From positions 1 through 36,509 of the forward strand of contig JWZX01003355.1 of the NCBI GenBank assembly GCA_001275005.1: a stretch of 36,509 nt of DNA, read 5' to 3'. A model generated the notes under the pieces. That model made no database searches and was not told where the DNA came from. It saw only the letters and a list, made by a program, of their open reading frames with translations. Positions 1 to 35,603 of this stretch are shown here, in pieces. The DNA is from Chrysochromulina tobinii. Its lineage: Eukaryota. How positions within the stretch are numbered: position 1 is the first letter of the stretch; each line of letters begins with the position of its first letter. The position numbers and the translations under genes were made by a program.

Positions 1-3000
1 GCCGGCGGACCGATCGTCGCGCGCCATGAAGCGTGCGACGCGCGGCGGTGCGAAGGAGCCAAAGTCACCCGTGATGGCCACGCCGGACGTGGTGGCAGGC
101 GACACGAGGGCACGGGTGCGCAAGTCCGCATCGGGCCGGATGGAGAGGGCCGCTAGCGCAGTCGTGTCGGAGAAATTGCCCAGCCCCTCGCCAAAGGTAA
201 TCAGCAGCGTCGACGTATCGGTCCACTCGCCCTCGTAGTGCGCGTCTGGTGGTGCCCGCCACGGCTCTCCCCGCACGTCTCTAAACGCGAGCACAGAGTC
301 CACATACGTGCGGTTGGGCAGCCGAGGGCCAATGGCGCCAATGGCGGGGAGCCCGGCGTAGCCGTTGGTTTCGCGGTCGAACGTGATGCGCAGGCGGTCG
401 CCCGCGCCCAGGATGGTGTCATTGTTGATCGGGTCGATGGCGAGCGCTTCGACAACGATAGGGGGCGACGAATAGCCCTTCGGCGACGACGCGTCGGTCG
501 TGACTCGAAAGGTAGACGTCGCCGAGCGCGAGGTGCGCGCCGGGTTGCGGACCGAGCCCGCGACCGAGACGAGCATCGTGCTGTCGAGGGACGGTCGCGC
601 TGCTTGGCGCGGGCCGCAGTCCGTGCAGTCGGAGCCGTACGGGCAGCGCGTGAACTCGGCGCCGAAGCCGCCATCGTCACACGTGCCGTCGGAGGCATGG
701 GCACACGTCTCTGGGCAGAGGGCGCCCCCCGAGACGACGACGGTCACCTCGAAAGTGGAATCATCGAGCCAGCTGCCGCTGTACGAGCTGCCGATCGGAT
801 GGGAGAAGGAGAAGAGGGAGTCGACGTAGAGCTTGCCGCCGCTCACGCCGCCGCGGTCGGTGAACTTGTCGAAGAGCACCTCGAAGGTGGTGCCCGACGT
901 GTAGGCGGTGTTTGCCGCACTCGCCGGGCGCGCTTTGAACGAGACGAGTCGCGGCGCGACGGCGCCGAAATCTCCGGTGAGCTCGACGGGGATGCCGGTG
1001 CTCGGGAGGGTGGTGCCGGCGCGATTGCGGATGTTACTCTGATTCTTCAGACTCGCCATCGTGATCCCAACGGCGGGGGCGTCGGCGAGGTCGGGCGGCT
1101 CGATGATCACGATGCGGAACGTCGAGTCGTCGAGCCAGTGCCCCGTGTAGTTGCTTCCGAGGGGCGTGCTGATGTCAAAGAGCCGATCGACGAGCGCCAT
1201 GCCCGACTCGGGTGCCGCCTCCTGCGAGCTGCCGTCGACGGACGTGAGGTTCGTCAAAAGGGCGCCTCGGTTCGTGGCCATGTTGAGCGTGAGCGTGAGC
1301 ATGTCGCCCGCGCCGTAGACGGCATCGAGGTCGAAGGGATCGTCGGCAACGAACGAGACGAGTGCGGGCGGCGAGTCGAGGCCATAGTTGCCGCTCAGCA
1401 CGGCGCTCTGCCCAGCGGCGGACGGGCGCGTGTGATCACGGTCGCGGATGGCGCCACCGACGGTGGCACGCGCCGTGCCGAGCGCCGGGGCCGCCTGACC
1501 GACGGAGATGAGCGTGACGACAAAGGTCGAGTCATCAACCCACTCGCCTGAGTAGTCGTCTCCCACCGGCGGAGAAAAGGTGAGTAGTGAGTCCACGTAG
1601 AGCTTCTGATCAGTGGACGTGTCGCGGTTGGTCGGGCGCGAAAAGGAGAGGGTGAGCGTGTCGCCCGTCCCGAAGCCGAGCCCCGAGTTATCCGGGTCGT
1701 TGGCGACGATGCTCACCGGCTCCGGAGCCTCGTCACTGCCATAGTCGCCCGTCAAATAGGGGCTCACGGCTATGGAATTCGACGAGGCGCCGCCGCCCAT
1801 GGCGCCCACAGTGGGGCTCGGCGCGGCGCTCAGGCCGTTGCCCGCCGCGCCTCGCACTGAGCCGATGACGTGGACGGTGGTGAGGGCGATCGGCGGCGCG
1901 GTCGCGCCGGGCGTGAGCACCTCGATCACGAAGACAGACGCGTCTCGACACGAGCCACTGTACTCAGCGCCGAGCGGCTGGCTGAACTGGAAGAGCGCGC
2001 TCACGTACTCCATCCCCCCGCCCGTCGGCCAGCCCGGCTTGACGTTGACTGCCGAATCGAATCGGATCCGCAGCGCATCGCCCTCCGACCACGAGCGGCG
2101 CGCGCACATCACGACGTTGTCGACGAAGCTCAGCTGCACGATCCCAGGCACGTGGCCACCGGGCGCCCAGTACGGCGCGTCGGGCCTCAGGTGCGCGTCG
2201 CCAAAGGTGCCGCTCAGCAGCACGGTCCGAAGCTGCGACGCGAGCCTCTCGAGCTCGCCCGCGAGCAGCGCGCTGCCTTCGTTATCGAGATTGCCGAGCG
2301 TGCCGTCGCCGTCGGAGTCGACGCTGTCCTGACGCAGCCACACGCTCGTGCGCCCGACGCTCGCGATGCTCTGGCTGGCGTCCACGAGCGTGATGACAAA
2401 CATGGACGAGTCGACCCACTCGCCCGTGTAGTCGTTCCCGAGCGCCGTCGAGAAGGGGAAGATGTCGTCCACAAACGAGCGGTTGCCGCGCAGCGCACCG
2501 GCGGCGTAATTGGTCACGCCATCAAAGTGGATGGTCAGAGTGTCGCCCACCGACGCGACCGAATCGCCATCATTCGGGTCGGCGGCGACAAACGAGGTGA
2601 TCGAGGGGATGGACGCCGCAATCGACTCGGTGGGCGTCTGAGAGAGGCTCGGCGCTGACGAGCCTGAGCTGGTGCGCACTGCCGCGAGGCCGAGGCCGCG
2701 CAGCTGCACGCGTGCGACGTCGCCCGAGCACACGCCCGGGGCGACGCACACTTGCCCCGGCATGCAATTCCAAGCGCCGAGTTGAGCGCCGAGGTTGCCG
2801 GTGCTGGTGTCGTCGCAGTCGGGATCGTGAGCTCCGCACGCGCAGTCGCAGCCGTCGCCGGTGCCATAGGTCGCAAAGCCGCAGCGCCACGAGGCGGGCG
2901 CGGGCGGGTGCTGGGACTGGTGCGTCAGGTTCGAGTCGAGGCTGCCGGCATCGACCACCTCCACGCGCAGCGCTTGTGGGCTCAGCCAGCTGCCGCGCAG

Positions 3001-6000: not shown

Positions 6001-9000
6001 CGGCGCTTGTGGTGCACATGATCGGTCCAGCCTGCGGCGCGTACGCCGAGATGCGCGGCTCACGGTAGTACAAGAACGTCAGCCCCGTCGGTGCGAAGTC
6101 GATGCCGTTGAGCGACACGTACACCATCACGTCGCCCGCAAAGTTCAAGTCCATGGCGGCCGACGGGCACACGATGGTGTTGGACACGTTGTAGCCCAGC
6201 ACGCCCAGGACGGCGGCGCCGGAGAGCGCCAGCGTCGTGTGGGCATGGTCCTCACCCCATCGGCAATAGCGCTGCGCCGCCGCCGAGTCGTCGAATCCGG
6301 TGAGCGTCCCTCGCCAACTCTGAGCCTCCCTCATGACCCAACGTGTGCCGCCCGAGCTTGGGCCTCGCAGCCGCCCTTGGACCAGCACCATGCTGCCGGG
6401 CTGCTCGTAGTAGCGCAGCTCGAGCCTCACTTTGACGAATTGCTGCCCGTTGATGGCCACGCTCAGCTCGTCGATCGGGCTGCTGCCGCGCGGGGGCGTG
6501 CGGCACTCGAGCCGGTTGGCCGCCACCGTCAGGGCTGGGGTCTCTCTGTAGTTGGCGAGCACCTGTGGGGAAGAGGCGAGCTCGTCCCAAGCACCCCAAC
6601 GGCAGCGCGCCGCGCCAGCTGCGGGCGGCTTGTACGTGCCGAGTGCGTCGAGCCCGTTGGCGTAGACGGTGATTAGGGTGCCCCCGCTCGACGGCCCGCC
6701 CCTCGGTGAGAGGCTGAGGACATCGGCGAGCGTCGGGTTCCGGTAGTACGTGAAGTCCAATCCCGTGTCCTCGAAGGGCGCGATGCCGTTCAGGGAGAGG
6801 TACAGACGGACCACGCCCACGACGGTGCGTGGTGTGGTGGTGCACGTGATGCGGCTCGCGTTCAAAAAGGAGGGCGTGACCAGTCCGCTCTCTTCTTCGC
6901 CCCAGCGGCAGCGCACGAGCTCGGGCGTGTCCGAGTTGAACGCGTCGAGGGCCGCGCCCTCTAGGTGGACGACGGTGCCGCCCTGCAGTGGGCCGCCGCG
7001 CACGGAGAGGGAGTAAAAGATGGACGAGATGACGAAACCAATTCGACTCTGCGCGGCGACGGTGGCATCGATGAGGTGCGAGACGGAGCGGAGCGTCCGG
7101 TCGTACAGTGCCGACGAGGCCTCGCCCACCAGGTCAACGAGGGAGCGTGCGAGCAGAAAGGGTGTCGGCAGCCGTCCAGTGTTCACAGGGAGAATCTCCA
7201 CGACGACGCTGATCGCTGTGAAGGCCGTAGAGCTGAGCTGTGAACTGTGAACAGCCGTAGAGCTGAGCTGCCGGCCTCCGCTTTCGGAGGACTCGACGGC
7301 GGCGCTGCCACCACCAGCCCCAGCGAGCTGCAGCCGCCGGCCAGCGGAGCCGCCTCCAGCTGAGGACGACTCACTCACGATGCGCACGACCTGCAGGCGC
7401 GACGCCGTCACGTTGCGTCCGTTCGACTCGACGGCCATCAGCGAAGCGGCGAGGTCCTGCCGAAGCGCCGCCTCGAAGGCCACCCGTGCTTGCGAGCCGG
7501 CGGGCACCTGGTCGATCCCGAGGTTCACGCGGAAGGTGACTCGGCGTGAACGCTGCGGCTCCATCGAGTAGAAGCCAAACGAAAAGGGCGTGGGGTCAAA
7601 GTCGGCGCCATTGAGCGAGACGAGCACGTCGTGGACGGCCGTGTCGGGCTTGGACGGCGTCGCGCACCGAAGCTCGGAGCTGCTCAGGTAGAGAGCGATC
7701 GTATCATCCGTGTCAAGCCCGTCGGTGAAGCGGCAGCGCGCAAACTGCGGCGTGCGTCTGCCTTCGTACTCATGGAAACCCAAGCCGTGGAGCGTGATGA
7801 TCGTGCCGCCGAGCGTCGAGCCGCCGGTCACGGGCGCCATCGTCGTCAGGTTGTACGGCTGCGTGTAGTACGCAAACGGAACGGAGGTTCGAACAAAGTC
7901 GGCACCGTTGAGCGCGAGCACAAACTCGCGGTCCACGTCGGGAAAGTTTGCAAAGGCTCCGCGGTCGAAGGACTCGCAGATGACGGTCGTGTCGCTTAGG
8001 AAGAGGGGGGTGGTCATGTACCTGAGGAGTTGGCACTCATAGGTCATTGGTTGCCATCAAGGAGGCCATCAGGCAGGTCATCAGGGAGGTCATCCGGGAG
8101 GCAATCAGGGAAGCAATAAGAGGCCATCAGAGGCCAGCACAGGCAATCAGACGATGCGTACTGGCCAGAGTAGTCAGAGAGCGCCCTCGACGCTTGCAGC
8201 ACGTCGATGATGAAGACGGAGCCATCGTACCACTCGCCTGAGTAGTCGGGGCCGACGGTCGGCTTCATGAGGAAGAGCGAGTCGACAAAGTCGCGCCCGC
8301 CTGAGTGCGCGCCGCGGTTCGTCCGACCGTTGAACGTGACTGTGAGCGTGTCGCCCACGCCGTAGCTAAAGTCGCCGCCGTCGGGGTCGGACGCTCGGAA
8401 GCTCACGATGCGCGGTGGCTGGAGAGTACCAACGCCCGCGTTCCGAGTCTGCAGGACGGGAGAGGTGGCGGTGGCGGGCGCCGAGGTGCGCCCACGGTTG
8501 CGGATTGGCTGCCCGGCCGTTGGCGATGAGGCGATCGTGGGCGTCACGCGCACATTTTTGAGGGTGACGCCGTCGGTCGTGATGCCCTCGTTGCTCGCGT
8601 CCTGGATAGTGATGACGAAGCTCGAGGCATCCTGCCACTCGCCTGAGAACTGGGCGCCGAGCGGGTGCGTGAACGTGAAGAGCGCGTTCACAAAGGCCTC
8701 ATCGCCGCGCGTAGGGGCGTCGAGGCCGCCCCGATCTGTGAGCCGGTCAAAAGTAGATAAAGAGCGAGTCGCCCTCGCCGAAGACGGTGTCGGCATTGTC
8801 CACGTCCTCCAAGATGAACCCACCTACTGGGAGGATCTTGGGCGCCTCAAGGGAGCCAAACGAGCCCACGAGCAGCGCCTGGCCGGAGGCCGCCTCCGAG
8901 TTGCCCGCCGCGTTGACAATCAGCCCGCCGCGCACATCGCGGAGGGATGCGTGCGTCTGGCCCACGAGGGCGGTGCCGCCCGCCGCGCTCACGATCGTCA

Positions 9001-18000: not shown

Positions 18001-21000
18001 TTGGTCGAGACGGGCGGCCTCGCCGTGTCGAGGTTGAAACGGACGACCACCTCGTCGCCCGCGCCGTACACGCCGTCCGCATTGTCTGGGTCGCGAATGG
18101 ACGCAGAGCGCACCTGATGATGGAGGCAATCAGCACAATCAGCATGCAGTCTGCCGACGGCCGTGGAGAGCATGGGTCGCCAACGGACGCGGAGCGCACC
18201 ATCGGGCCCGCGTAGCAGTGCTGCATCGCAAAGTCTCCCCATGGGCTACCCGAGGTCGCCGAGGCCAATGGGCTGTTGGAGGCGGCCTTGAGGCCGGCGC
18301 TCTGCTTGACGGAGACACGGAGCCGGAACCCCTGCCCCTGTGGGATGTTGTACGTCTGGGCGGCGCCCGTGGTGCCGCCCATAGCGCGCTGGTGCGGGCA
18401 TGAGATCAGGACGTTATTCGCATCCCTCCGGCCGCATTGCGTCGCGTCGGGCATCTGCTCGCTCGGGATCGTAGCATTGAACTCGAGCGGCTCGATGACG
18501 AGCGTCATCGCGTCCGTCCAATTGGCGCGAAGGCGCGAGCCGAGGGTCCACTCGTCGGCCGTTACACTAATGGACTGGGCGATGAACGTCGCGCGGAACT
18601 CAAAGATCTCAAACAGGCGCGCCGCGTTGAGCGCCCCCTCCTCGTGCCCCAGCCGATTCGTCGGACGGTCAAACGTGAGCACGAGCTGATCGTGCACACT
18701 CCACGAGCCCGAACCGTCCATGTCGCCCACGTACGCATCGAGCAGCAGCGGCGCCGAGTGATCGCCAAAGTCGCAGAAGGGCTGCCCTTCGCACAAGCGA
18801 GGGTTCACATTCGTGCCAAACCGGCGGCCGATGAACGGGGGCGAGGCCGACTCGAGGCGGGAGGGCGTGTACGGGCCCAGCAGGTCCCACCTGTCATCAG
18901 GGGAGGTCATCACGGGAGGTCATCACGGGCGGTCATCAGGGGAGGTCATCAGGGGAGGACATCAGAGGTCATCAGAGGTCATTAAGGGATTCATCAGGTA
19001 ATCAGGGGAGGTCATCAGGGGAGGTCATATCAGGTAATCAGGTACCGATTGCGGAATCGCGCCTCCCGGCTCGGCGTGACGCGCATCGTGCCCAGCTGGG
19101 ACTGCGTGAGCGCGGCTGGGTTGACGCCCGGGCTACCGTCGAGGATTGTGATCACCACGCGCTCAGGTTCGTTCCACGCGCCGCTGTAATCCAGCCCGAG
19201 GCCGCAGCTGAAGTCGAAGTACCGGTCCACCCATCGTTTATCGCCCTGGAAGGCGGGTAGCAACCCACGATCGGTCGGCATCGAGAAGCGCAGCTCGAAC
19301 GAGTCGAAGGCGTCGTACACCGTATCGGCGTAGTCGACGTCGCGCACCACGAAAGCGGCGATCCGTGGTGCGCCCGCCTCCCCGAAGGAGCCACGGAGCG
19401 GCGGTGAGGTCGTGTTGCTCAGATCGGAGATGCCACCTCGGAAGCGGATCGGGCGCTGTGTGCCAGCGGCGTGACGCGCCTGCACGACCGTATCGCCGAG
19501 GGCGAGCCCAGAACCGAGCGGATCGAGCAGCGTCACTACAAATGTTGACTCGTCCGCCCAGGCACCCGAGTAGCCGTTGGGCGCGCCGCTCAGCGCGACG
19601 GCGCTCGACTGGTTCAGCCAGGCAGCCGGCGACTGGGAGGGCACAAAGTCGGCATCCTCGGGGCAGCTGCCCACGGGCCGATAGTAGAGCTCAGCTCCAG
19701 CCGGGCCAGCACGTATGAAGCTCTGGTGCGTCACGAGGCCGGCGAGGCCGAACGCTGCGAGCTCAACGCTCGTAAAGGTCAGCTGCTGCGCCCGGAGCCT
19801 CGCCGCCAGCCCCGCGTTGATGAGTTCCATCCCCCCACTTGGACGAAATGGCCCCGCGTCGAACCAGGCCAAGCCGAGCGTCGAGCTGCGACAGAAGCGG
19901 AAGAGTGAGTCCACATACGCGTGGTCACCCGAGGTGGCGCCGCCACCCACGCCGCTCGCCCACGGCTGCGGCGGCGAGACGCCAAGATCGGTCGGACGAT
20001 CGAAGGTGATGGTGAGCGTATCTCCCGCGTCGAGACCGGGGGCGGAGTTATCCTCGTCGGCCGCGACGAAATCGACGAGGCGCGGCGGCGGTCGCCGGCC
20101 GCGGTCGCCCGTCAGCCGGTTCGAGCTGCGCGCGGAGGCCCCGGAGCTCGAGCGCAGGTGGATCGCGGGCGCCGCAAACGTGGCGCCCGAGACGGCGCGC
20201 CCGCCCCGCGTGTCATGGAGCGTGATGACGAAGCACGGATGAAGGGTGGTAGTGCCGCCGTCGGCGCAGTCATCGGACTCGCCGTCGCGCCACGCGCCGG
20301 TGTAATTCGCCGCAATCACGGCGGAGAAGCCGAAGAGATGGTCAACGTACGCCTTGCCTCCCGAGCTCATCTCCGAGCCGCCGCCCCGGTTCGTCGCCAT
20401 GTCAAAGTGGAGCACCATCGTGTCGCCGTCGGTGTAATTCGTCGCGTTCGCGGCGACGACGACGGTGAAGCGCGTGATGGCGGGTTCGCTAAAGACCCCA
20501 GCGTCGCCGGTGATGGTGACGGTCTGGTTGTTCGCGTCCAGCAGGTCACTCGCCGCGTTCTTGATCTGATCCGTGGTGACGGTGACCGTACTCGTCCCCG
20601 GAGCGAGCGCACCGCCCGACGGGTTGATGATGGTGATGATGTAACGGCTGGGCGTGGCCCAGACACCCGAGTACTCGACCCCGAGAGGACGACTGAACGC
20701 AAAGAGCGCATCGACGGCCGCGCGGGACGAGTTGGCGCCCGGGACGACGATGGTCGGCGTGTTCGTCGGGATGTCGAACTGGAGGATGAGGACGTCGCCG
20801 ACGCCGTACACGTCATCCCCATTGTCCACGTCGTCGAGCGTCGCGGAGAGCAGTCTGGGGAAGGTCGGCACGCCGAGGTCGCCCGTGAGCATGGGCGAGG
20901 TGGTGTTGGCGTAATGGAGCGTGCAATCATGCAAGCTCGAGTTGACAATGGACGGGTTCGTGAGCAAGTTGACATAGTCGTCGGGCCAGCCTCGCTCGAG

Positions 21001-24000
21001 GTCCATCAGGTTGGAGCATGTCTTGGCCGTGTAGTTGAGATTGGTGATGCCGCCGGAGGGGCGCGCCGTCACATTGAGCTCGCCAACGCGCGGTGGGAAG
21101 ATCTGCGACCCTTCCGCGTCGACGATGGTGACCACGAACGTCGAATCGTCCTTCCATTCGCCCGTGTAGTCGGCACCGAGCGGGTGCGAGAACTCGAACA
21201 GAGCGTCGACGAGCGCCTTGCCGCTCAGCGAGCTGCTGCCCAGCGGGTAGGGGACCACCTCGGGCGGGCCGCCCTTGACACCCGCGCCGTTGGCCGGATA
21301 CACGAGCGTCGACGGCTGCTGGTAGTTGCTGTGCGTCACGCCCCGGTTCGTCTGCTGGTCGAAGACGATGGTGAGCACGTCGCCGGACGAGAAGACGGCG
21401 TCTCCATTATTCGGATCGTCGGCGACGAAGCGGATGATCCGCGGCCCGTCGCCCGCCCTTCCAAAGTCGCCTTCCAAACGAGGCAAGCTTGCGAGCGCCG
21501 GCGTGCCATCAGTGAGCATCGTGCTCGCGTCCAGCCGCGCTGCGGAGCCGCTGAGGGTGGGCGCGAGGCAGTAGGGGGTGCCTCGGAACTCTGCCGGGCA
21601 CGAGAGAGACTGCACGCGCACATCGCGACGGAGTGCGACGCGCGTGCCAGAGTCCGCAAAGGCGGTGCCGTAAGGCCTGTAGCTGGGGGCGAGGATCCCT
21701 GGCTGCGGCGCGGCCGAGCCGTTGATGACCGTGACGAGGAAGGTGGAGTCATCGAGCCAGCCGGTCGAGTACTCGTGGAAGAGAGGCTGCACGATGCGAC
21801 TGCCCGACGCGTCGAAAAAGTCGAAGAGACGCGCGAGCTGGGTGTTGAAGAAGCCGTTGCCCGAGCACTGCGACGAGAAGTCACAGTTGAGGACTCCCGA
21901 GTACTCCGCGAAGGCGTTGGCGGCGCGGTCGGTGGGCACATCGAAGCGAAGCGCGATCGTGTCCCCTGCTCCGGGGATGAGGTCGCGGTTGACGAAATCG
22001 GACGCGATCACCTCCACGAGCCGTGGCGGTGTGGGAAAGGTCTCGACGCGCTCGGCGACACCGAGGAGCGCCGCCTCCATGACGAGCAGCGGCGCCGTCT
22101 GCGCCAGGTTCGTCATGTTCGCCTCACGCGCAATCCGTAGCATCGTGTCATACGGCCGCGGCGCGTACTCCGGATCGGGATACGGCTCCGTCACGGTCAC
22201 CACGAACGTCGAGCCGTCGGACCAAGCGCCGCTGTACTGGGCGCCCAGCGGGGCCGAGACGCTGATGAGCGAGTCAACATACTCCTTGCCGCCCGATCCG
22301 CGCTGTGCACAGAAGGGCAGGTTGTTCACAGAGAGGGCCTGCTGCAGGCATCGGCCAGGGAGCACCGCGCGGTCGAATTGCAGCACGAGCTCATCGAAGG
22401 CATCGTAGCTCGCGTTCGCGTTGTCGCGGTCATGTATGAAGAAGCGTAGCAGGGAGGGCGCCGTCTCGTTCGCGCCAAAATCGCCCACGCTCAGCCGGTA
22501 CGATGCACTCGAGAACTCGGACGTGCGCGGCGCGTTCTGCAGCCGGCCGGCGACGGTGACGAGGGCGCCCGAGGAGCCACCCACGCGTGGACCAGTGCCT
22601 GCACCGGTAGGATCGAGGATGGTGACGACAAAGGTGGAAGTGTCGAGCCACGCGCCGCTGTAGTCGGCTCCGAGTGGCTCGGAGAAGGCGAGCGTCGTGT
22701 CCACGAACGCCCTGCCGCCCTCGCGCCTGCCCAAGTCTGTGGGGAGGTCGAACTGGATGGCGAGCGTGTCGTTGCGCGACCACAACGGGTCCTTGAGGTC
22801 CCACGTCTGCGAGTCGTACCGGATGATCGAGGGGGGGGTCATCGTGCCGGGATTGCCCGTCAGCGCCGAAGTGGCGCGGCACCAGCGCGAGCGCTCGTTC
22901 GCGGTCTTGATGTCGCCGGCGACCGAGACTGTGACGGCGCCCAAGACGGCGCCCGGGCTGGACGGCATCGTGTGGCCACTCACGTCGACCATGGTGATGA
23001 GGAAGGTGAGCGGGTCGAGCCAGCGACCGTTATAGCGCGCACCGAGCGACTCGCTGAAGCGGAAGAGCCGATCGACCAGATCGCGATCTCCCGCCTCGGT
23101 TGCGAGCTCGTCGTACCTGATGAGGGAGGCACTCAGAGGTCATTCGAGGCACCCAGAGGTCATTCGAGGCACTCAGAGGCAGTCACGCCAGCTTCTTGTC
23201 GTCGTACCCCTCGACCCTCGAGATAGCGCGATTCGTTTCCGAGTCGAACGTGATCGTGAGTGTGTCGCCGTCCGAGAAGACGACGTCGCGATTGTCAGGG
23301 TCCGCGAGTACCGCAGACAAGATCTTAGGCGCGACCACCCCGGCCTCACCCGTCATCGAGAGGAAGCCCGCGGAGATGGGCGAGGTGCGCGGCGTGTTGC
23401 GAAGGTCTCCTGCAATAGTGAGGGTGGAAGTGAAGCCGCCGCCCCACAAGCAGCGTGCGACCTGCGGCATCGAGGGGAGCTCGGTCAATCCAGATCCCAT
23501 CCAGATCAATCCAGATCCCATCAAGATCAAGGGCAAATCGAGGATAGTCAAGGTCAATCAAAGGGACTCACCTGCGTCATCTCCTGTTGAGAGAGGGGCT
23601 GCGACTCCGACACAAACGCAGCCAAGCCCCTGCCCGTGAGCGTGACACGTGTCCCCCCGCGCTTGGGCCCCGCCTCGGGCGTGATGCCGGAGAAGACGGT
23701 CGGCTGCACGTAGTACGTGTAATCGAGGCCGGTGTCGATGTACACGGCGTCGTCGCTCGAGAGCAGCAGATGCACGTCGCCACTCTGACCGACGGGCGGC
23801 GTGGCGCAGAGGAGCCGCTCCCTGCTCACCTGTGGGGATATGGCGATGGCGCCGTGGTGAGCACTTGCATGCAGGCGTGGCGCAGAGGAGCCGCTCCCTG
23901 CTCACCTGCAGCACCGGCATCACCACCTCGCGCGAGCTGCCGAAGCGGCAGAAGGCGATAGGGCCCGCATCGAAACCAAAGCCGCGGAAGGTGACGAGGG

Positions 24001-27000
24001 TTCCTCCGGTGGTCACACCCCCGGGCGGCCCGCCGTTCACAGTCACCTGGTCGATTCGCAGGCCGTAGTAGCGGAATCGGTACGTCGTGTCCACGTACTG
24101 CTGGGCGTTGAGCGTCACGAGCACGAACGCGGCCTCGGCCTCAGCGATCGCCGTCTGATCATTGCCATATTTGGGTATGGTTGCCATATTTGGGCGAGCG
24201 GCACACGTTCAGTGAGGATCAGAGGCACTCAGGGGCCATCAGAGGGCATCGGAGGCACTCAGAGGGCATATGAGGCCATCAGAGGGCATCGGAGGCCATC
24301 AGAGGGCATCAGAGGGCATCAGAGGGCATCAGAGGGCATCAGAGGGCATCGGAGGGCATCGGAGGGCAGCACGCACCTGATTGGGCGAGCGGCACGTCCA
24401 CCGCTCAGGTAGCAGCTCGATCGGCGGTGTGTCGGCGATGTTATTCGACGTGACGAAGCGGCAGCTCGCAAACTCGGTGTTGCCCCCGAGCCCGTGGAAG
24501 CCCTGCCCAAAGATGCTCATGATGTAATCAGAGGTAATCAGAGAGGTAATCAGAGGTAATCAGAGGACTCACCTGACCAAAGATGGTCATGATGTAATCA
24601 GAGGTAATCAGAGGTAATCAGAGGTAATCAGAGGACTCACCTGCCCAAAGATGGTCATGATGTAATCAGAGGTAATCAGAGAGGTAATCAGAGGTAATCA
24701 GAGGACTCACCTGCCCAAAGATGGTCACCACCGTGCCGCCCGAGAAGACGCCTGCCTGCGGCAGCACCGACTGCACCGAAGGCGGGTTGTAGTACGTGTA
24801 GTTCTGACCCGTCCAGCGCGGATCGCGCCCCGACTCGAGGGCGAAGCCGTTGAGGGCGAGCCAGAGCTGACGCGTATCGGTCAACTTCGTGGGTGGGCTC
24901 TCGCACACGGCGGCATGCCCGCCGCCGAGCGCCGTGGCGCGCGTGATCGTGTAGCGAGGGTTGTACGCGGCGTTCGTCGGCTCGCCGTACTGGCACGAGA
25001 GGTACGCGCCGCGATCGAGCGCGTCGAATCCAGTGCCGACGAGGGTGACGAGGGTACCGCCTGTCCGATGACCGCCCGAAGGGATGATGCGCGCTACGTA
25101 CGGGTTGTCATAGTATTGGAAGTTGAGGCCCGTCGCACCAAAGTCGATGGCGTTGAGCGAGAGGGTGAGGTTGACCGTCTCGGCAGCCCCGATGCGTGCT
25201 GGCGGCGCGAGGCACACGATGCGCCGATTCGAAAGCTCGAGGGGCTGCGACTCAGGCGGCGGCAGGCTGAGGGTCTGTGCCAGGCTCGCGGCCAGCATGT
25301 CCACGATCGGGGCCTGCCAACGGCAGCGCACGAGGCTCGACGAGAATGCAAGGAAGCCCGAGCCCACGATCGTGACTGCCGTGCCCCCTCCCTTGGGACC
25401 ACCCACGGGGGACAGCCGGACGAAATCCTCGTTGGATGAAACCCCGGCGCCACTCCCCTTGGGGCGGGGCTGCTGATAGTACTCGAACGTGAAGCCGGCG
25501 ATCGGCTCGAAGTCGGTCTGCGCGCCATTGAAGGAGAGGGCGATGCTCACGACGGCGGGCTGTGCCGCCGGCGGCGTCGTGCACACGATCATATGGCGCT
25601 CGAGGACCTCGGCTGCCACGAAGTTGACGAGCCCAAACCGACACAACGCGTTCCGCGGGTCGGTCGAGAAGACGTCAAACGGACCTCCTAGGATGGTGAC
25701 CGAGGTGCCTCCGCGCGTCGGACCGCCTGTCGGCTCGCTTGCCGTGTAGTTCGTCGGCTGCTCATAGTACAAGAAGGAGACGTTGAGCGCGTACAAGTCG
25801 ATCGCGTTGAGTGCGAGCGACATGTTGCGCCGAGCCGTCGTCGACTGGGGGAACGAGGCGACGACGATGCGATTGGGCGTGAGCACGCTCGGTGTCGTCA
25901 GGTTCGTCAATGACGTGTCGCCCCACCCGACGCGCACGTCACTCACGTTGATGGAGGCGTACGCTTTGAAGCCACTCCCGCCCAGAGTAACGACGGTGCC
26001 GCCGTCGACCCGCCCGCCCGTTGGGTGGATGGACGTCACCGTGAACGGCTGCACGAAGTACGTGAAGTTCAGCGCCGTGTCGGGCGTCACGGCCACATAG
26101 TCGCGGTCGTTGAGCGCGATCTCAAGGCCCACGACGGTGGCTTGCGTGAACGGCTGAGCGGCTGTCCTGCACCAGAGCTGCGTGTCGTCCAGGTACTGCG
26201 GGATGGTCACCTCCGTCCCATCCCATCGGCATCGCGCGTTCCCCGCCTGCGCGCCCCCCAGTCAACGGCCGCATGCAATTAGAGTGATCATCAGCGGTCA
26301 TCAGTGGTCATCAGTGGCCATCAGCGGCCATCCGAGCTCATCCGCGCTCATCAGCGCCACTCACCTGCGCGCCCCACCGGGCGAATGCCGCGAGGCCCTC
26401 GCCATGGATCGTGATCACCGAGCCGCCGAGGGTGGGGCCCGCCGTCACGGGGGTCAGATGCGTGAGGCGCGTCGGCTGCACGAAGTAGGCATACTCGAGG
26501 CCGTTGGTGTGGTAGTCTTGGCCGTTGAGGGCGATCTCCATGTCGGTCACCACCGGCGACGAACGCACCGGCGAGCGGCACACGACGCGCATGGGCGTGA
26601 GCACCGTCGGTGTCTGGAAGCTCACCAGAGGCGTCACGGCGTCCTCCGCCTCGGTCACATTGGTAGACAGGCAGGGGCGCAGCTCGACATTCGAAGTGCT
26701 CAGAGGCGCCGAGCCGTCGAGGTAGGGAGGTGCACTGCCCAGCCGACGCAGGCGCGTCTGCCCCGGACGGATGGAGATGCGCAGCCCCGAGCCTGATGAC
26801 GGGAGCCATCAGATAGGATCAGAGGCCATCAGAGGCCCTCCGAGGCCCTCCGAGGCCATCAGAGGCCATCAGAGGCCATCAGAGGCACTCAGAGGCCATC
26901 AGAGGCCATCAGAGGCCATCAGAGGCACTCGGAGGCACTCGGAGGCCATCAGAGGCCATCAGAGGCACTCGGAGGCACTCAGAGGTGACGAACCGCCTTG

Positions 27001-28495
27001 GAGTAGATTGGTAGGCGCGGCCTGCGAGTCGCCGCCCGACACGGCGCCTGGCGTGACGCGTGCGTTGATGGCCTTGAGGGTGAGGCGACGCGTGTCGAGC
27101 CACTCGCCCGTGTACGTATCAGCCAAGCGCACAGGCCCGCCTTGCCCCCTGCTCGAGAAGACGAAGAGTTCGTCCACCTGGCGCGAGAGCCGCAGGCGAG
27201 GGTATGAGGGCGATCGTGTGTGAATGAGGGCGATCGTGTGTGAATGAGGGCGATCGTGTGTGAATGAGGGCGATCGTGTGTGAATGAGGGCGATCGTGTG
27301 TGAATGAGGGCGATCGTGTGTGAATGAGGGCGATCGTGTGTGAATGAGGGCGATCGTGTGTGAATGAGGGCGATCGTGTGTGAATGAGGCCCATGCAGCT
27401 TCGATCCAAGGTCATTCGCGCCCCGCCCAGGCATGACTCCGAGCCACGCCTCGGAGCCATGTAACGTACCTGTGGGGAGTGAGGGCGTCGTGATGAGCAC
27501 TTGCATGCCGAGCCACGCCTCGGAGCCGTGTAACGTACCTGTGGGGAGTGAGGGCGTCGTGATGAGCACTTGCATGCCGAGCCACGCCTCGGAGCCGTGT
27601 AACGTACCTGTTCACCGGTGAGTTGGCGCGAGAAGCCGTTGAAGGCGGTGGCCGCGAGTTGGATGCCGTTCGTTGGTATATCGAAGATGACCGAGAGAGG
27701 CACCGCGCCTGTGAGTGCATCGGCTTCGCACCCGTCCGGCTGCGAGCCCACGCGGAACGCTACGATCGAAGGCTTGTCGGTGAACCGGCACCGGATCAGT
27801 GTGTCCGCGAGGTCGATGTGGGACTCGTTCAGGTAGCCTCCCGTGAAGCCGATGCCCTCGATCACGACCTCGGTACCGCCGGTGACGGGCCCGCCCGTGA
27901 TGGCGGCGTTGGTGAAGTTTGCGGGTGCCGGGTAGTAAATGTACGTGAACCCCGTGTCCATCAGGTTCGGCTCAATGAACGTCGTCCCTACTGTCGTCCC
28001 AGCGAGCGTTATGTAGCGCAGCGAAAACCACAGGCTGACTAGGCCCGACACGCGCGGGTACGACGGGCACTTGAGCATATCGACGCGGCTGATGCTGGCC
28101 GGGACGTCAAAGGTGGCGCGCAGCTCGGGCGTCACGGTCACCTCGGTAAGCAGCTGGGTCGCCTCCGTAAAGTATTCGGGCGGCACCTCGGGCAACGACG
28201 CCTCATCGTCGCTCCAGCCCGACCGGTCGGCCTGCTGTCGCGCAAGGATGGCCTGCTCCCAGTCCTGCGGATTGCCCCAGTGGCATTTCACGCGGTTGAG
28301 CACGCCGGTGCTGATCCGGCTGAACTCGCGGCCGACGATCGTCACGGTCGTGCCGCCCTGCACCGGCCCGCCGGTCGGGTGGGCCGAGTAGACGGGTGGC
28401 GCTTTCTCGTTATGGCTCGTGCTCCGGCTCCCAGGAGGGAGTATGAGCAGCAGCGGCAGCAGCAGCAGCGCTGTGGGAGCACGCCTGCGCGCCAT
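1..28495 (-). CDS. Giant secreted/cell-surface repeat protein with IPT/TIG domains and ~44 copies of an uncharacterised acidic ~130-150-aa module; 3'-partial (>8,800 aa)
   Basis: ATG at 28495 in CCACCATGG context, followed by signal-peptide-like MARRRAPTALLLLPLLLILPPGSRS. Inferred exons: 28495-27608, 27177-26994, 26792-26365, 26246-24711, 24502-24377, 24154-23906, 23829-23572, 23461-23208, 23116-19046, 18890-18200, 18113-17139, 17065-8162 (one extra base at 8749-8752), 8021-3522, 3352-<1. All joins are GT-AG and phase-consistent, and they stitch the long minus-strand ORFs (481, 514, 1320, 2784, 1523 aa and others) together. IPT signature P..GP..GGT.VT..G.GF...CR[FW]...C..P...LNG..F. Confidence 0.85.
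3353..3521 (-). other. Intron 13 of giant gene (5' exon copy plus type A acceptor cassette)
   Basis: Starts GTTCGTCGCGCCC; next exon starts GTTCGTCACGCCC; ends TTGCCTCCCTCATCAG; contains 10-bp and 24-bp tandem repeats. Confidence 0.8.
8022..8161 (-). other. Intron 12 of giant gene
   Basis: GTACGC...CTCCTCAG, phase 2, filled with degenerate CTGAT repeats; joins SGQ-YMTTP. Confidence 0.7.
17066..17138 (-). other. Intron 11 of giant gene (17-bp 5' exon copy plus type A cassette)
   Basis: GTGCGCCCGCGAGACGC occurs at the intron start and at the next exon start; ends TGATTGCCTCCCTCATCAG. Confidence 0.85.
18114..18199 (-). other. Intron 10 of giant gene (27-bp 5' exon copy, 3 mismatches)
   Basis: GTGCGCTCCGCGTCCGTTGGCGACCCA versus exon GTGCGCTCTGCGTCCATTCGCGACCCA; ends TGATTGCCTCCATCATCAG. 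Confidence 0.85.
18891..19045 (-). other. Intron 9 of giant gene (CTGAT minisatellite)
   Basis: GTACCTGATT...GATGACAG, phase 2, joins RNR-WDLL. Confidence 0.75.
23117..23207 (-). other. Intron 8 of giant gene (9-bp 5' exon copy plus type A cassette)
   Basis: GTACGACGA at both the intron start and the exon start; ends GAGTGCCTCCCTCATCAG. Confidence 0.8.
23462..23571 (-). other. Intron 7 of giant gene (3' end resembles upstream exon end)
   Basis: GTGAGT donor; ends GATGCCGCAG versus exon end GATGACGCAG. Confidence 0.8.
23830..23905 (-). mobile_element. Intron 6 of giant gene: introner-like unit (32-bp exon duplication plus type B cassette)
   Basis: GTGAGCAGGGAGCGGCTCCTCTGCGCCACGCC is identical to the next exon start, followed by TGCATGCAAGTGCTCACCACGGCGCCATCGCCATATCCCCACAG. 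Confidence 0.7.
24155..24376 (-). other. Intron 5 of giant gene
   Basis: GTGCGT...GATCAG; 10-bp CTCTGATGCC array; internal copy TGCCGCTCGCCCAA of the upstream exon end. Confidence 0.75.
24503..24710 (-). repeat. Intron 4 of giant gene: three tandem intron units (70/68/70 bp)
   Basis: Each unit is GTGAGTCC-(TCTGATTACC)n-...CATCTTTGG[G/T]CAG, ending in a copy of the upstream exon end; internal AG|GT at 24641/24640 and 24573/24572. Confidence 0.85.
26247..26364 (-). other. Intron 3 of giant gene (11-bp 3' exon copy)
   Basis: GTGAGT donor; ends GGGGCGCGCAG, the same as the upstream exon end. Confidence 0.8.
26793..26993 (-). other. Intron 2 of giant gene (10-bp minisatellite)
   Basis: GT donor at 26993 (an in-phase GC donor at 26996 is also possible); CTCTGATGGC array; ends CCCGTCATCAG. 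Confidence 0.7.
27178..27607 (-). other. Intron 1 of giant gene, containing two 69-bp type B units and a 20-bp minisatellite
   Basis: Splicing GEQ|VDELFVFS restores the repeat-module consensus; units at 27607-27539 and 27538-27470. Confidence 0.75.
27204..27389. repeat. 20-bp minisatellite (TGAATGAGGGCGATCGTGTG), about 9 copies
   Basis: Near-perfect tandem array with no spacers, inside intron 1. Confidence 0.95.
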
Positions 28496-28832
28496 GGTGG
28501 GGCCTCGGTGAGCGCTCCGCTTTGCTTGGAAAAGGCACAAATAAGCGTTGAAGTGGGCGGTCAAAGTTTGCAGAGTGCGGGGTGCTTTGGTAGCATGTGG
28601 TAGCCGGCGGCCCGGTGACTCGTACTGAATTCTTTGACACTACTGTACGATTTCCCTGAAGAAAGTAAGAGCCGAGCCGTGTGGAACAATTGAAATGTCC
28701 ACGTACTCGTGTACTGTTGTACATTGTGTCTTGGAACTTACCCCGGAATTTGCCGGTTGCAACACGGACACAGTTTCGTCAGAAGCGCCGCGTCAAGCAC
28801 ATCGAGGTCCTGTGCGACCTCCGAGAAAGCTC
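28496..28832. promoter_or_regulatory. Short head-to-head intergenic region, probable bidirectional promoter
   Basis: 337 bp, visibly more AT-rich than the flanking coding DNA, between two divergent ATGs (28495 minus, 28833 plus). No specific element identified. Confidence 0.45.
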
Positions 28833-31085
<2,253 letters not shown>

Positions 31086-35309: not shown

Positions 35310-35603
35310 CTGCGTTTACGCGGTCGGGGGTGCGTATGCGCAGAAACTTGTGTATACGCGAGGGGGTACGTATACGCACCCGCTGTGTATACGTACTACC
35401 GCTCGCGTAAACGCACCTAGCCGCGTATACGCACCCGGGTGCGTGTACGCACCCGCTGCGTAAATGCACCCAGCGCTCGCGTATACACACCCACCCGCGT
35501 AAAACGCACCCACACCCGCGTACAAGCACGTGTGCGTAAACGCGGCGTCGGATGCGTATACGCACCTACCTGCGTATACGCACCCGACGCTGCGTTTACG
35601 CGG
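35310..35603. repeat. Palindrome-rich repeat tract (GCGTATACGCACCC units), possibly MITE-like
   Basis: Many GCGTATACGC/GCGTAAACGC units in both orientations; CTGCGTTTACGCGG direct repeat at both ends; imperfect ~20-bp inverted termini just inside it. Confidence 0.55.

What the first reader, a model, noticed from the sequence alone, without database searches (positions are those of the whole stretch)
1..28495. Giant (>8,800 aa) secreted protein dominated by an unrecognised acidic repeat module
Seen: signal peptide and about 44 diverged copies (manual count, including degenerate ones) of P.(I/L)..F.A.DPDN.D.VYG.GD.LTI.FD..TDRGG.....FVD.LF.FS..LG..YSGEW.D.STFVITI.D.....V.....RN....S......L.G.FG, plus about 14 IPT/TIG domains and many N-x-S/T sequons. 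The gene is still open at the window edge. Inference: the module is a beta-sandwich with a DxDxxD Ca2+-binding loop, forming an adhesin-like or structural filament (scale, matrix or prey-capture role). I do not recognise the module as a named family.
Basis: partly seen in the sequence, partly recalled or inferred. Interest (0 to 1): 0.72.

Follow-up and report, generated by a model that had tools for sequence, protein, structure and literature searches.

The report
Giant algal surface protein, unnamed Ig-like module
A gene for a secreted protein of more than 8,800 residues (likely over 12,000) in a probable haptophyte alga is real, transcribed and spliced. It is built mostly from 44 copies of an Ig-like module that no curated family library names, although the module occurs in over 1,600 protein clusters from bacteria to protists, and the protein likely forms a glycosylated cell-surface coat or fibre.

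Summary
On the minus strand, from ATG 28495 to the window edge, 14 exons give an 8,805-residue open frame once 13 GT-AG introns are removed and one extra T (8749-8752) is skipped. Other DNA and RNA assemblies lack that T.

The protein has:
- a signal-peptide-like N-terminus;
- 14 IPT/TIG domains;
- 44 copies (plus one cut by the edge) of a ~125-residue module;
- 86 N-x-S/T sequons, against 53±6 expected.

RNA contigs show the splicing, and a 65%-identical orthologue is colinear across seven junctions.

The module folds with high confidence (pLDDT 89) as a β-sandwich with one short helix. It has no Pfam-A or NCBIfam model, and its nearest solved folds are Ig-like domains of the bacterial S-layer proteins SbsB and SbsC (Z 8.2-8.4). 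It is widespread: 1,651 clusters, including giant bacterial SLH proteins and protist proteins with a transmembrane segment after the array.

The proposed Ca2+ loop is weak: the motif occurs in 19 of 44 copies and not in the three bacterial copies aligned.

Two TIG domains are split. One holds a single module, the other a 32-module, ~4,940-residue array.

Near-identical contigs continue about 3,390 residues further without reaching the end.

Best reading: a giant glycosylated surface coat or fibre protein. This is a new variant of a known kind.

The parts
28415..28495 (-). Start codon and signal-peptide-like N-terminus (27 residues)
   Evidence: First in-frame ATG after the upstream stop. The sequence has a basic n-region, a Leu-rich core and a small-residue c-region. 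RNA contigs reach 28519. Judged by eye, no predictor was run.
23399..28393 (-). N-terminal IPT/TIG block. TIG1 has a ~60-residue insert. TIG2 is split around one module (N-half 27773-27916, module within 26740-27790 across two introns, C-half 26470-26622). TIG3-9 are intact. The N-half of TIG10 lies at 23399-23688.
   Evidence: Pfam TIG E 1.3e-31 and 6.4e-7 on ORF pieces. In-house TIG profile coordinates are 2-43 + 47-97 for TIG2 and 4-55 for the TIG10 N-half. Pfam on the N-half alone gives E 0.0011, profile 6-28/84.
8162..23347 (-). Module array 1: 32 copies of the ~125-residue Ig-like module (protein residues 1262-6187), lying between the two halves of TIG10
   Evidence: No Pfam family on the 2,784-aa, 1,369-aa and 605-aa ORF pieces.
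8749..8752 (-). T-run with one T too many in the window (a 1-nt frameshift inside a module, GDSLFIYF|DRLTDRGG)
   Evidence: One search shows the frame change. Bridging contigs of 2 DNA runs (X1, X8) and 2 RNA runs (X14, X16) leave out one base here. No contig supports the window's version, and X15 does not bridge the site.
6056..8021 (-). C-half of TIG10 (7856-8021), TIG11, a ~180-residue unassigned stretch (7019-7558), and TIG12-14
   Evidence: The in-house TIG profile places the C-half at coordinates 46-96, i-E 2e-9. Pfam TIG E 3.9e-18 and 2e-11. Pfam finds nothing on the 56-residue C-half alone.
1..5863 (-). Module array 2: 11 copies plus one cut by the window edge. It includes a Pro/Ser/Thr/Asn-rich stretch with 7 sequons (3316-3877) and two Cys-rich inserts (2710-2889, 601-690).
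   Evidence: One copy from this array was folded: AlphaFold2 of 1381-1737.
27178..27607 (-). Intron 1. The other twelve are 26793-26993, 26247-26364, 24503-24710, 24155-24376, 23830-23905, 23462-23571, 23117-23207, 18891-19045, 18114-18199, 17066-17138, 8022-8161 and 3353-3521.
   Evidence: All are GT-AG, 73-430 nt. Intron 12 is seen as an exact joint in 2 RNA runs and in neither of 2 DNA runs. Introns 9-11 and 1-5 fit the pieces of RNA contigs (table 8). Introns 1-7 are supported by gap-free colinearity with orthologue P0183. Intron 13 rests on sequence alone.

Best explanation
This is one transcribed and spliced 14-exon gene for a giant secreted protein made of 14 IPT/TIG domains and 44 copies of an uncurated Ig-like beta-sandwich module. 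The protein likely stands on the cell surface of a probable haptophyte alga as a heavily N-glycosylated structural coat or fibre.

Shown:
- the gene structure, its transcription and its splicing;
- the domain counts;
- the module's membership of a large family with no curated model;
- that family's presence in bacterial SLH-bearing giant proteins, and in protist proteins where a hydrophobic segment or a cluster of such segments follows the array.

Predicted, with high confidence: the module fold.

Inferred:
- The signal peptide sends the chain into the secretory pathway, where the excess of sequons is glycosylated.
- The ~58 beta-sandwich domains in the window (about 85 if the near-identical contigs show the rest) form a long semi-rigid chain. 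The modules act as spacer or lattice units, as Ig-like domains do in bacterial S-layer proteins and in the Chlamydomonas ciliary coat protein FMG1B.
- The 32-module array emerges as a side loop from a TIG domain whose two halves re-associate.
- The unseen C-terminus anchors the protein in the membrane.
For: One gene, expressed:
- The frame is open for 8,805 codons after the introns are removed.
- An RNA joint lies exactly at intron 12 in X14 and X15 and is absent from DNA runs X1 and X8.
- RNA contigs of up to 4.7 kb tile the exons, and their pieces fit introns 1-5 and 9-11.
- Orthologue P0183 aligns in a single HSP, 65% identical, over residues 30-1280, with no gap of 4 or more at seven junctions.
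- Against a 98.2%-identical contig there are 22 synonymous and 21 non-synonymous codon differences in 861 codons and no stops.

Extracellular:
- a signal-peptide-like start;
- 86 sequons against 53±6 expected;
- TIG domains.

Module fold:
- pLDDT 89.2, seven to eight strands and one short helix.
- Best solved matches are SbsB 4aq1 (Z 8.4, rmsd 2.8, 92 aligned) and SbsC 2ra1 (Z 8.2, rmsd 2.7, 92 aligned).
- Foldseek lists FMG1B 9gos at probability 0.95, TM 0.58.
- The FMG1B paper describes 34 Ig-like repeats with one short helix, a linker and a multi-helix membrane domain, heavy N-glycosylation and a scale-like outer coat (PMC12021028, passages).

Family context:
- 1,651 clusters at E <= 1e-3 and 239 at E <= 1e-30.
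- P0071 and P0078 carry SLH and BslA domains next to 6 and 4 modules. P0078 lies in a Eubacteriales MAG.
- By a hydropathy scan of 19 long relatives, the only or last hydrophobic segment lies just after the last module in P0047, P0053, P0055 and P0066, and clusters of 5-8 such segments lie far downstream of the modules in P0037, P0038, P0050 and P0115.
Against: - The C-terminus is not in the window, and no anchor was seen in a further ~3,390 residues of near-identical contigs.
- Localisation, glycosylation and any lattice or fibre are untested.
- Z 8.2-8.4 is at the level the tool calls common for models without clear relatives. The Foldseek E-value for FMG1B is only 0.26, and FMG1B was too long for the second aligner.
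- FMG1B's defining Cys pair is absent.
- Some relatives are receptor-like: P0115 carries a REJ domain.
- One 99%-identical contig (L004) leaves the gene 123 nt past the window end.
- The organism is inferred only from nearest Atlas clusters (Haptophyta known for 2-3 members) and from GC content.
Confidence: 0.5

Rival explanations
1. Adhesin. The chain is a long stalk that presents binding surfaces for cell-cell contact, substrate or particle attachment, or prey capture, like giant bacterial repeat adhesins.
For: The architecture resembles repeat adhesins: a long Ig-like rod plus domains that emerge from split domains. The split-domain principle is described for RTX adhesins (PMC12077191, abstract seen in the listing). 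The module co-occurs with bacterial cadherin-like domains in P0072.
Against: No recognisable ligand-binding domain (lectin, vWA, carbohydrate-binding module) was found in the window or in the extension. What is inserted in the split TIG is more of the same spacer module. The closest characterised eukaryotic analogue, FMG1B, was reported as not required for gliding force transduction and as mucin-like and anti-adhesive by analogy (PMC12021028, passages).
Confidence: 0.2
2. Receptor ectodomain. The giant extracellular part is the sensor of a polycystin-1/REJ-like or multi-pass membrane receptor whose membrane part lies beyond the window.
For: P0115 combines 6 modules with a REJ domain (E 1.8e-71) and 5 hydrophobic segments. 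P0037, P0050 and P0145 combine Kelch, modules, DUF7630 and a cluster of hydrophobic segments.
Against: These are different proteins that share only the module. The window and the ~3,390-residue extension show only TIG, module, Pro-rich and Cys-rich parts: no REJ, GPS, PLAT or membrane cluster. P0020, which fuses an ion-channel fragment to a piece of this gene at an arbitrary point inside a module, looks like an assembly chimera.
Confidence: 0.12
3. Calcium-binding matrix protein of scales or coccoliths. The acidic modules bind Ca2+ through the DPDNxD loop and take part in mineral or scale assembly.
For: The net charge is about -310 (D+E 933, K+R 623). An acidic motif follows the first strand in some copies. 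The organism is probably a haptophyte.
Against: The motif is present in only 19 of 44 copies and absent from the three bacterial copies aligned. D+E is 10.6% of residues, not the extreme low-complexity acidity of known mineral-binding proteins (recalled knowledge). The main text of a coccolith proteome study gave no relevant TIG hit (the two 'tig' word hits were not on TIG domains), and its supplements list TIG only in Pfam enrichment tables (PMC10290126). That study's identifiers could not be matched to this gene.
Confidence: 0.08
4. Broken or composite locus: a pseudogene (because of the frameshift) or several adjacent genes wrongly read as one.
For: There is a 1-nt frameshift in the window at 8749-8752. 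Under table 11 the frame falls into 13 pieces. One near-identical contig, L004, diverges just past the window.
Against: Four of five runs examined bridge the site, and all four lack the extra base. All other breaks are GT-AG introns, most of them confirmed by RNA contigs or by orthologue colinearity. L004 breaks a module at profile position 62 of 129, whereas L005 and L006 run through it.
Confidence: 0.04

Closest known systems
FMG1B, the flagellar membrane glycoprotein of Chlamydomonas reinhardtii (PDB 9gos; PMC12021028)
   Same: Both are giant, N-glycosylated, extracellular chains of dozens of diverged Ig-like repeats, each with one short helix. The paper describes 34 'beta chunk repeats', a linker plus multi-helix membrane anchor, and a scale-like outer coat (passages). 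Foldseek gives probability 0.95, TM 0.58, rmsd 4.5 over 125 columns. Some relatives of the present module have a cluster of hydrophobic segments far downstream of the modules.
   Different: There is no sequence relationship: the profile search of PDB sequences does not list it. FMG1B's conserved Cys pair is absent, and here the invariant residue is a Trp. FMG1B has no TIG domains in the passages read. The anchor of the present protein is unseen.
Ig-like domains of the Geobacillus S-layer proteins SbsB and SbsC (PDB 4aq1, 2ra1; Pfam Big_5 / SbsA-type bacterial Ig-like domain)
   Same: They are the best structural matches (Z 8.4 and 8.2, rmsd 2.7-2.8, 92 residues aligned). Big_5 gives weak hits (E 0.0016-0.002). 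The module itself occurs in bacterial proteins with S-layer-homology domains.
   Different: Sequence identity is 11-17%. The Big_5 score (19.3-19.6 bits) is below Pfam's cut-off of 23.6, and only 1 of 32 copies reaches it. SbsB and SbsC are ~1,000-residue lattice proteins of Gram-positive bacteria, not 10,000-residue eukaryotic chains.
Giant bacterial surface proteins that carry the same module (P0078 in a Eubacteriales MAG, P0071, P0072)
   Same: This is true homology of the module. Per-copy scores are 57-88 bits, the alignment is end to end, identity to the window's copies is 24-39%, and the GD, VD, Y-G-W and terminal G-F positions are conserved.
   Different: The bacterial copies lack the DPDN motif. 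They number 4-6 per protein and are combined with SLH, BslA, ChiW-Ig or cadherin-like domains. The module is rare in that class: 5 of 300 genomes.
Split domains of RTX adhesins (e.g. the Aeromonas hydrophila adhesin, PMC12077191)
   Same: In both, a beta-sandwich of the stalk is interrupted by an inserted unit that would project sideways (abstract seen in the listing). Here two TIG domains are split at the same loop.
   Different: In RTX adhesins the insert is a single ligand-binding domain. Here it is one module in TIG2 and 32 modules (about 4,940 residues) in TIG10. That the halves re-associate is not shown here.
IPT/TIG-array surface proteins (fibrocystin/PKHD1 family, plexins, Dictyostelium Tgr proteins; recalled, not searched)
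   Same: Both have long arrays of IPT/TIG domains in a secreted or membrane protein. There are 14 here and about 22 more in the extension.
   Different: No G8, PbH1, Sema or PSI domains were found. The dominant module is not related to TIG by profile-profile comparison (probability 0.12%).

Membership tests
IPT/TIG domain (Pfam PF01833) | Score above Pfam's gathering threshold | tested here: met
   108.9, 65.7 and 29.7 bits against a cut-off of 20.9 on three ORF pieces. 14 domains by the in-house profile.
Big_5 / SbsA-type bacterial Ig-like domain (Pfam PF13205), for the repeat module | Score above Pfam's gathering threshold (23.6 bits) | tested here: not met
   1 of 32 copies matches, at 19.3 bits, E 0.002. 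19.6 bits on the 1,145-aa piece.
Big_5 / SbsA-type bacterial Ig-like domain, for the repeat module | Same fold as the S-layer Ig-like domains | tested here: inconclusive
   Z 8.2-8.4, rmsd 2.7-2.8, 92 aligned. These are the top of 48,161 chains but lie at the level the tool calls common.
FMG1B beta-chunk-repeat proteins | Ig-like repeat with two sheets and one short helix | tested here: met
   The model has strands 7-13, 27-32, 52-55, 61-68, 71-78, 90-93 and 111-117 and a helix at 45-51. The description is in PMC12021028.
FMG1B beta-chunk-repeat proteins | Perfectly conserved Cys pair in each repeat | tested here: not met
   No conserved Cys column in 32 aligned copies. The invariant residue is W66.
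FMG1B beta-chunk-repeat proteins | C-terminal disordered linker and multi-helix membrane domain | not testable with these tools
   The C-terminus lies outside the window and beyond the ~3,390-residue extension.
Cadherin-like / Ca2+-rigidified repeat | Conserved acidic Ca2+-ligand motifs in every repeat | tested here: not met
   D.[DN][DN].[DN] occurs in 19 of 44 copies and is absent from the three bacterial copies aligned. Binding itself was not tested.
Polycystin-1 / REJ receptors | REJ, GPS, PLAT domains and a membrane cluster | tested here: inconclusive
   None in the window or the extension. The end of the protein is unseen, and relative P0115 has a REJ domain.
Divergent TIG (is the module just another TIG?) | Profile-profile similarity to this protein's own TIG domains | tested here: not met
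   hhalign probability 0.12%, 4 aligned columns.

The most novel reading that the evidence does not exclude
The half-TIG domains that flank the 32-module array are a clasp. Either they close a ~5,000-residue loop in cis, or the N-half of one molecule is completed by the C-half of another, so that the chains polymerise by domain complementation into a eukaryotic S-layer-like mesh. That mesh would be built from an ancient Ig-like module shared with bacterial SLH surface proteins. The same 'half TIG, then modules' order in four more distant relatives, and 'modules, then rest of TIG' in a fifth, argues that the split is functional and not debris.
Probability: 0.15. Interest if true: 0.8.

Novelty: new variant of a known kind. 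Interest (0 to 1): 0.6.

Why it matters
If the organism is a bloom-forming haptophyte, this would be one of its largest genes, and it is transcribed (spliced RNA contigs are present), yet nothing was found in print about it. My searches found no paper on it. They cover only the held open-access library.

The module deserves a curated family. It has 1,651 clusters at 50% identity, reaches from Clostridia-type SLH proteins to protist proteins with membrane segments, and is invisible to Pfam-A and NCBIfam. Large parts of many giant surface proteins are therefore currently annotated as nothing.

The protein also offers a second, independent example, besides FMG1B, of a folded-repeat, mucin-like coat protein in algae. 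It also shows an unusual nesting of a whole repeat array inside a TIG domain, which is directly testable by structure prediction with deeper alignments or by electron microscopy.

Tried and rejected
- **Whole genome of the window:** none is held.
- **Profile of the module against PDB sequences:** four chance-level hits (E 0.11-0.98), such as Musashi RRM. Rejected.
- **Foldseek against PDB:** no match at E <= 0.001.
- **AlphaFold2 of the nested TIG-module-TIG unit** (residues 1-302 of orthologue P0185, with a 5-row alignment): mean pLDDT 35.9, unusable. It says nothing for or against re-association of the halves.
- **Complex prediction on the two TIG halves of P0185:** never ran because the queue was full.
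- **Pfam on the four half-TIG pieces alone:** only the N-half of TIG10 gives a weak hit (E 0.0011). The other three give none. The split therefore rests on the in-house profile and on visible motifs.
- **Search for a longer near-identical protein running past the window end:** best identity 41%.
- **The search for related loci with the mixed bacterial/eukaryotic alignment:** One bacterial copy then found only its own locus.
- **Earlier findings by place and by sequence:** nothing.
- **Coccolith proteome paper:** no relevant TIG hit in the main text (two 'tig' word hits, neither on TIG domains), and only enrichment rows in the supplements.
- **Plus-strand ORFs of 739 and 426 aa over the gene:** no family, taken as GC-rich antisense noise.
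- **P0020 (ion-channel fragment fused to this gene):** taken as a chimera, because the join falls inside a module at a point where the window's own sequence runs on.
- **L004's divergent continuation:** no Pfam family and only low-complexity repeats.
Full report
**1. Is it there?**

The window is 62-70% G+C. No whole genome is held for it. All long ORFs that carry the repeat lie on the minus strand, and under table 11 they fall into 13 pieces.

The first in-frame ATG after an upstream stop is at 28495. It is followed by a basic, then Leu-rich, then small-residue stretch that looks like a signal peptide. This was judged by eye.

The breaks between ORF pieces are 13 GT-AG introns of 73-430 nt, with one exception. 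At 8749-8752 a run of four T shifts the frame in the middle of a module (GDSLFIYF | DRLTDRGG).

Removing the introns and skipping one T gives 26,415 nt = 8,805 codons with no stop, still open at position 1.

**2. Is the gene real and single?**

- I laid assembled contigs of public runs on 7900-9400 and on 8701-28700.
- At the T-run, bridging contigs of two DNA runs (X1, X8) and two RNA runs (X14, X16) leave out one base. X15 does not bridge the site, and no contig supports the window's four T. The frameshift is therefore an assembly error or a private variant.
- RNA contigs of X14 and X15 skip exactly 8022-8161 (minus-strand GT..AG). The DNA runs do not.
- In one search, RNA contig pieces join 18888 to 19044 directly (X15 record 19).
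- Other pieces leave record gaps whose lengths equal the predicted exons: X16 record 29 across introns 1-5, and X14 record 13 across introns 9-11.
- RNA contigs reach 28519, 24 nt upstream of the ATG.
- Orthologue P0183 (1,283 aa) aligns to residues 30-1280 of the spliced model in one HSP at 65% identity, with no gap of four or more at any of the seven junctions it covers.
- Intron 13 rests on sequence only.
- Against a 98.2%-identical contig there are 22 synonymous and 21 non-synonymous codon differences in 861 codons, and no stops. By a rough site count this is about three-fold purifying selection.

**3. Counts**

- *Modules.* A profile of 32 copies (alignment A1) finds 44 copies at domain E <= 1e-3, 40 of them near full length, plus one cut by the window edge.
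- *Controls.* There are 46 six-frame hits on the minus strand and 0 on the plus strand. The best E in 20 shuffles plus the reversed protein is 1.1.
- *Divergence.* The copies are 16-45% identical, mean 30%.
- *Conserved positions.* W66 is invariant. P5, D26, F32, Y62 and G64 are conserved in at least 90% of copies.
- *TIG domains.* A profile of this protein's own intact TIG domains finds 14 (shuffle control best E 0.91). Pfam confirms TIG on the ORF pieces.
- *Sequons and charge.* 86 sequons against 53.2±6.3 expected. D+E 933 against K+R 623.

**4. What is the module?**

- *Curated libraries.* Pfam-A finds nothing on the 2,784-, 1,369- and 605-residue pieces made of it. Scanned copy by copy, 1 of 32 reaches Big_5 at 19.3 bits, below the 23.6-bit cut-off. 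NCBIfam finds nothing. A profile search of all PDB sequences gives only chance-level hits.
- *Not a TIG.* It is not a diverged TIG: hhalign probability against this protein's TIGs is 0.12%.
- *Predicted fold.* AlphaFold2 with the paralogue alignment gives pLDDT 89.2 and pTM 0.83: a sandwich of seven to eight strands with one short helix.
- *Foldseek.* No match at E <= 0.001. It does list the Chlamydomonas coat protein FMG1B (9gos) at probability 0.95 and TM 0.58.
- *Exhaustive aligner.* It puts S-layer protein domains on top: SbsC 2ra1 at Z 8.2 and SbsB 4aq1 at Z 8.4, rmsd 2.7-2.8, 92 residues aligned, 11-17% identity. The tool warns that Z near 8 is common. I therefore read this as 'Ig-like, most like S-layer Ig domains', not as membership.

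**5. How widespread is it?**

- The profile finds 1,651 cluster representatives at E <= 1e-3, 1,029 at E <= 1e-10 and 239 at E <= 1e-30 among 1.84 billion.
- In the word-indexed search, 34 proteins were found. None carries a name other than 'hypothetical protein'.
- *Bacterial members.* P0071 and P0078 have SLH and BslA domains and 6 and 4 modules. P0072 has bacterial cadherin-like domains and 5 modules.
- Their copies align end to end with the window's at 24-39% identity.
- P0078 lies in a Eubacteriales MAG, inside a 3,564-codon open frame.
- In that bacterial class 5 of 300 genomes sampled have a match.
- *Eukaryote-like members.* The scan was a simple hydropathy window over 19 long relatives.
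- The only or last hydrophobic segment lies just after the last module in P0047, P0053, P0055 and P0066.
- Clusters of 5-8 such segments lie far downstream of the modules in P0037, P0038, P0050 and P0115.
- P0115 also has a REJ domain (E 1.8e-71). P0037, P0050 and P0145 also have Kelch repeats.
- The nearest Atlas clusters are unnamed and, where known, from Haptophyta.
- The window's G+C matches the 66.4% reported for a recent Emiliania huxleyi assembly (PMC10290126, passage with Table 1). I take the organism to be a haptophyte, without proof.

**6. Architecture**

- *Two split TIGs.* Two TIG domains are split at the same place, between the 'RCRF/W' strand and the 'L.C.SP' strand.
- TIG2 has profile coordinates 2-43 at residues 194-241 and 47-97 at residues 415-465, with one module in between.
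- TIG10 has coordinates 4-55 at residues 1185-1244 and 46-96 at residues 6188-6243. Between them lie 32 modules, about 4,940 residues.
- TIG1 has a ~60-residue insert at the same loop.
- *Support from relatives.* Orthologues P0183, P0184 and P0185 keep the TIG2 arrangement.
- P0008, P0014, P0017 and P0019 show 'N-half TIG, then modules', and P0143 shows 'modules, then TIG 28-96' (9 of 182 proteins examined had any TIG).
- *Caveat.* Pfam's generic model, given the four halves alone, sees only the N-half of TIG10, weakly. The split therefore rests on the in-house profile (i-E 1e-6 to 3e-12) and on plainly visible motifs.
- *Untested.* Whether the halves re-associate is not shown. The fold of the unit failed (pLDDT 36) and the complex predictor was not available.

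**7. Beyond the window**

- Three metagenome contigs match the last 2.6 kb at 96.6-99.0% identity.
- L006 (98.2% identical, ungapped up to the window's last base) and L005 continue the gene.
- The continuation completes the cut module, then has a ~190-residue Pro-rich linker, two more modules, a TIG C-part (28-96), and about 22 more TIG domains.
- It contains one more repeat-bearing intron and is still open after about 3,390 residues.
- No hydrophobic anchor appears in that stretch.
- L004 (99.0% identical) leaves the gene 123 nt past the window end, in the middle of a module. It runs into an unrelated 1,615-codon frame with no Pfam family. I take this as a rearrangement or a misassembly.
- If L005 and L006 show the true continuation, the protein exceeds about 12,100 residues.

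**8. Interpretation**

- *Most likely.* This is a giant, glycosylated, extracellular coat or fibre protein whose modules are structural spacers or lattice units.
- The closest characterised analogue by architecture is FMG1B: 34 diverged Ig-like repeats with one short helix, heavy N-glycosylation, a linker and multi-helix anchor, and a scale-like outer layer of the ciliary coat (PMC12021028, passages). The module lacks FMG1B's conserved Cys pair, so this is analogy, not membership.
- The closest by fold, and by company in bacteria, are S-layer and SLH proteins.
- The split TIGs recall the split domains from which ligand-binding domains emerge in RTX adhesins (PMC12077191, abstract in the listing).
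- *Rivals.* The alternatives are adhesin, receptor ectodomain, Ca2+-binding matrix and broken locus. They are weighed in their own sections.

**9. Novelty**

Giant Ig-repeat surface proteins are a known kind. Three things are new here:
- the module family, which is large, spans kingdoms and has no curated model;
- its use on this scale in a eukaryote;
- the nesting of a whole array inside a TIG domain.

My literature searches for this protein or module found nothing relevant. They cover only the held open-access library.

Noticed in passing
window introns: 27178-27607, 26793-26993, 26247-26364, 24503-24710, 24155-24376, 23830-23905, 23462-23571, 23117-23207, 18891-19045, 18114-18199, 17066-17138, 8022-8161, 3353-3521: Most of the 13 introns consist largely of tandem ~10-nt repeats of the type CTGAT(G/T)(A/G)CCTC. 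Several end in ...CCTCATCAG. In 7 of 13, 7-25 nt of the flanking exon are directly duplicated at the opposite end of the intron, for example 17 nt at intron 11 and 25 nt at intron 6. This looks like a target-site duplication, as in introner-type intron gain. In DNA runs these stretches reach word depths in the thousands against about 45-100 for the exons, so the repeat is genome-wide. My searches for introners in haptophytes listed no paper on this in title or abstract, and I opened none.
   Followed up: partly
window 8749-8752: The window has one T more than bridging contigs of 4 runs (2 DNA, 2 RNA). This is probably an assembly error in a homopolymer.
   Followed up: yes
window 11348-11353: Contigs of X1, X14 and X15 have a T put in behind 11348 and one base left out at 11353. 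This is a compensated pair of indels that changes two codons between strains.
   Followed up: no
window 601-690 and 2710-2889: There are Cys-rich inserts between modules. One is ...DGTCDDGGFGAEFTRCPYGSDCTDCG... and the other ...GTGDGCDCACGAHDPDCDD.... The first motif alone (query residues ~80-136) pulled most of the other loci (L007-L057), at 36-100% identity, out of the metagenome collection, so it is a widespread small module. Pfam gave no family for it.
   Followed up: no
P0020 (protein): This is a 596-residue database protein whose cluster has 18 members. It joins 118 residues of an ion-transport domain (Pfam Ion_trans, E 6e-28) to a ~95%-identical piece of this gene, and the join lies inside a module. 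It is probably a chimeric assembly, but it recurs.
   Followed up: partly
L004:2692-7536: A contig 99.0% identical to the window's last 2.6 kb diverges 123 nt past the window end into an unrelated 1,615-codon open frame. That frame has low-complexity repeats and no Pfam family. The window ends close to this breakpoint.
   Followed up: partly
window ~28900-30930 (+): A class II aminoacyl-tRNA synthetase gene (tRNA-synt_2b core and HGTP anticodon-binding domains; by its motifs probably prolyl-tRNA synthetase, recalled) lies head to head with the giant gene, a few hundred bases from its start. It is interrupted by stretches with the same ~10-nt repeats at 29731-29818 and 30041-30211.
   Followed up: partly
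window 35596-36507 (-): An open-ended ORF encodes RNI-type leucine-rich repeats (Pfam LRR_6, E 5e-21) and shows an 84-nt DNA periodicity.
   Followed up: no
L006:~3400-4100 and ~9000-9110: The continuation of the gene in a 98%-identical contig holds a ~190-residue almost pure Pro/Ala/Leu linker. It also holds another repeat-bearing intron whose 3' end duplicates 17 nt of the upstream exon and whose 5' end reads GC rather than GT.
   Followed up: no
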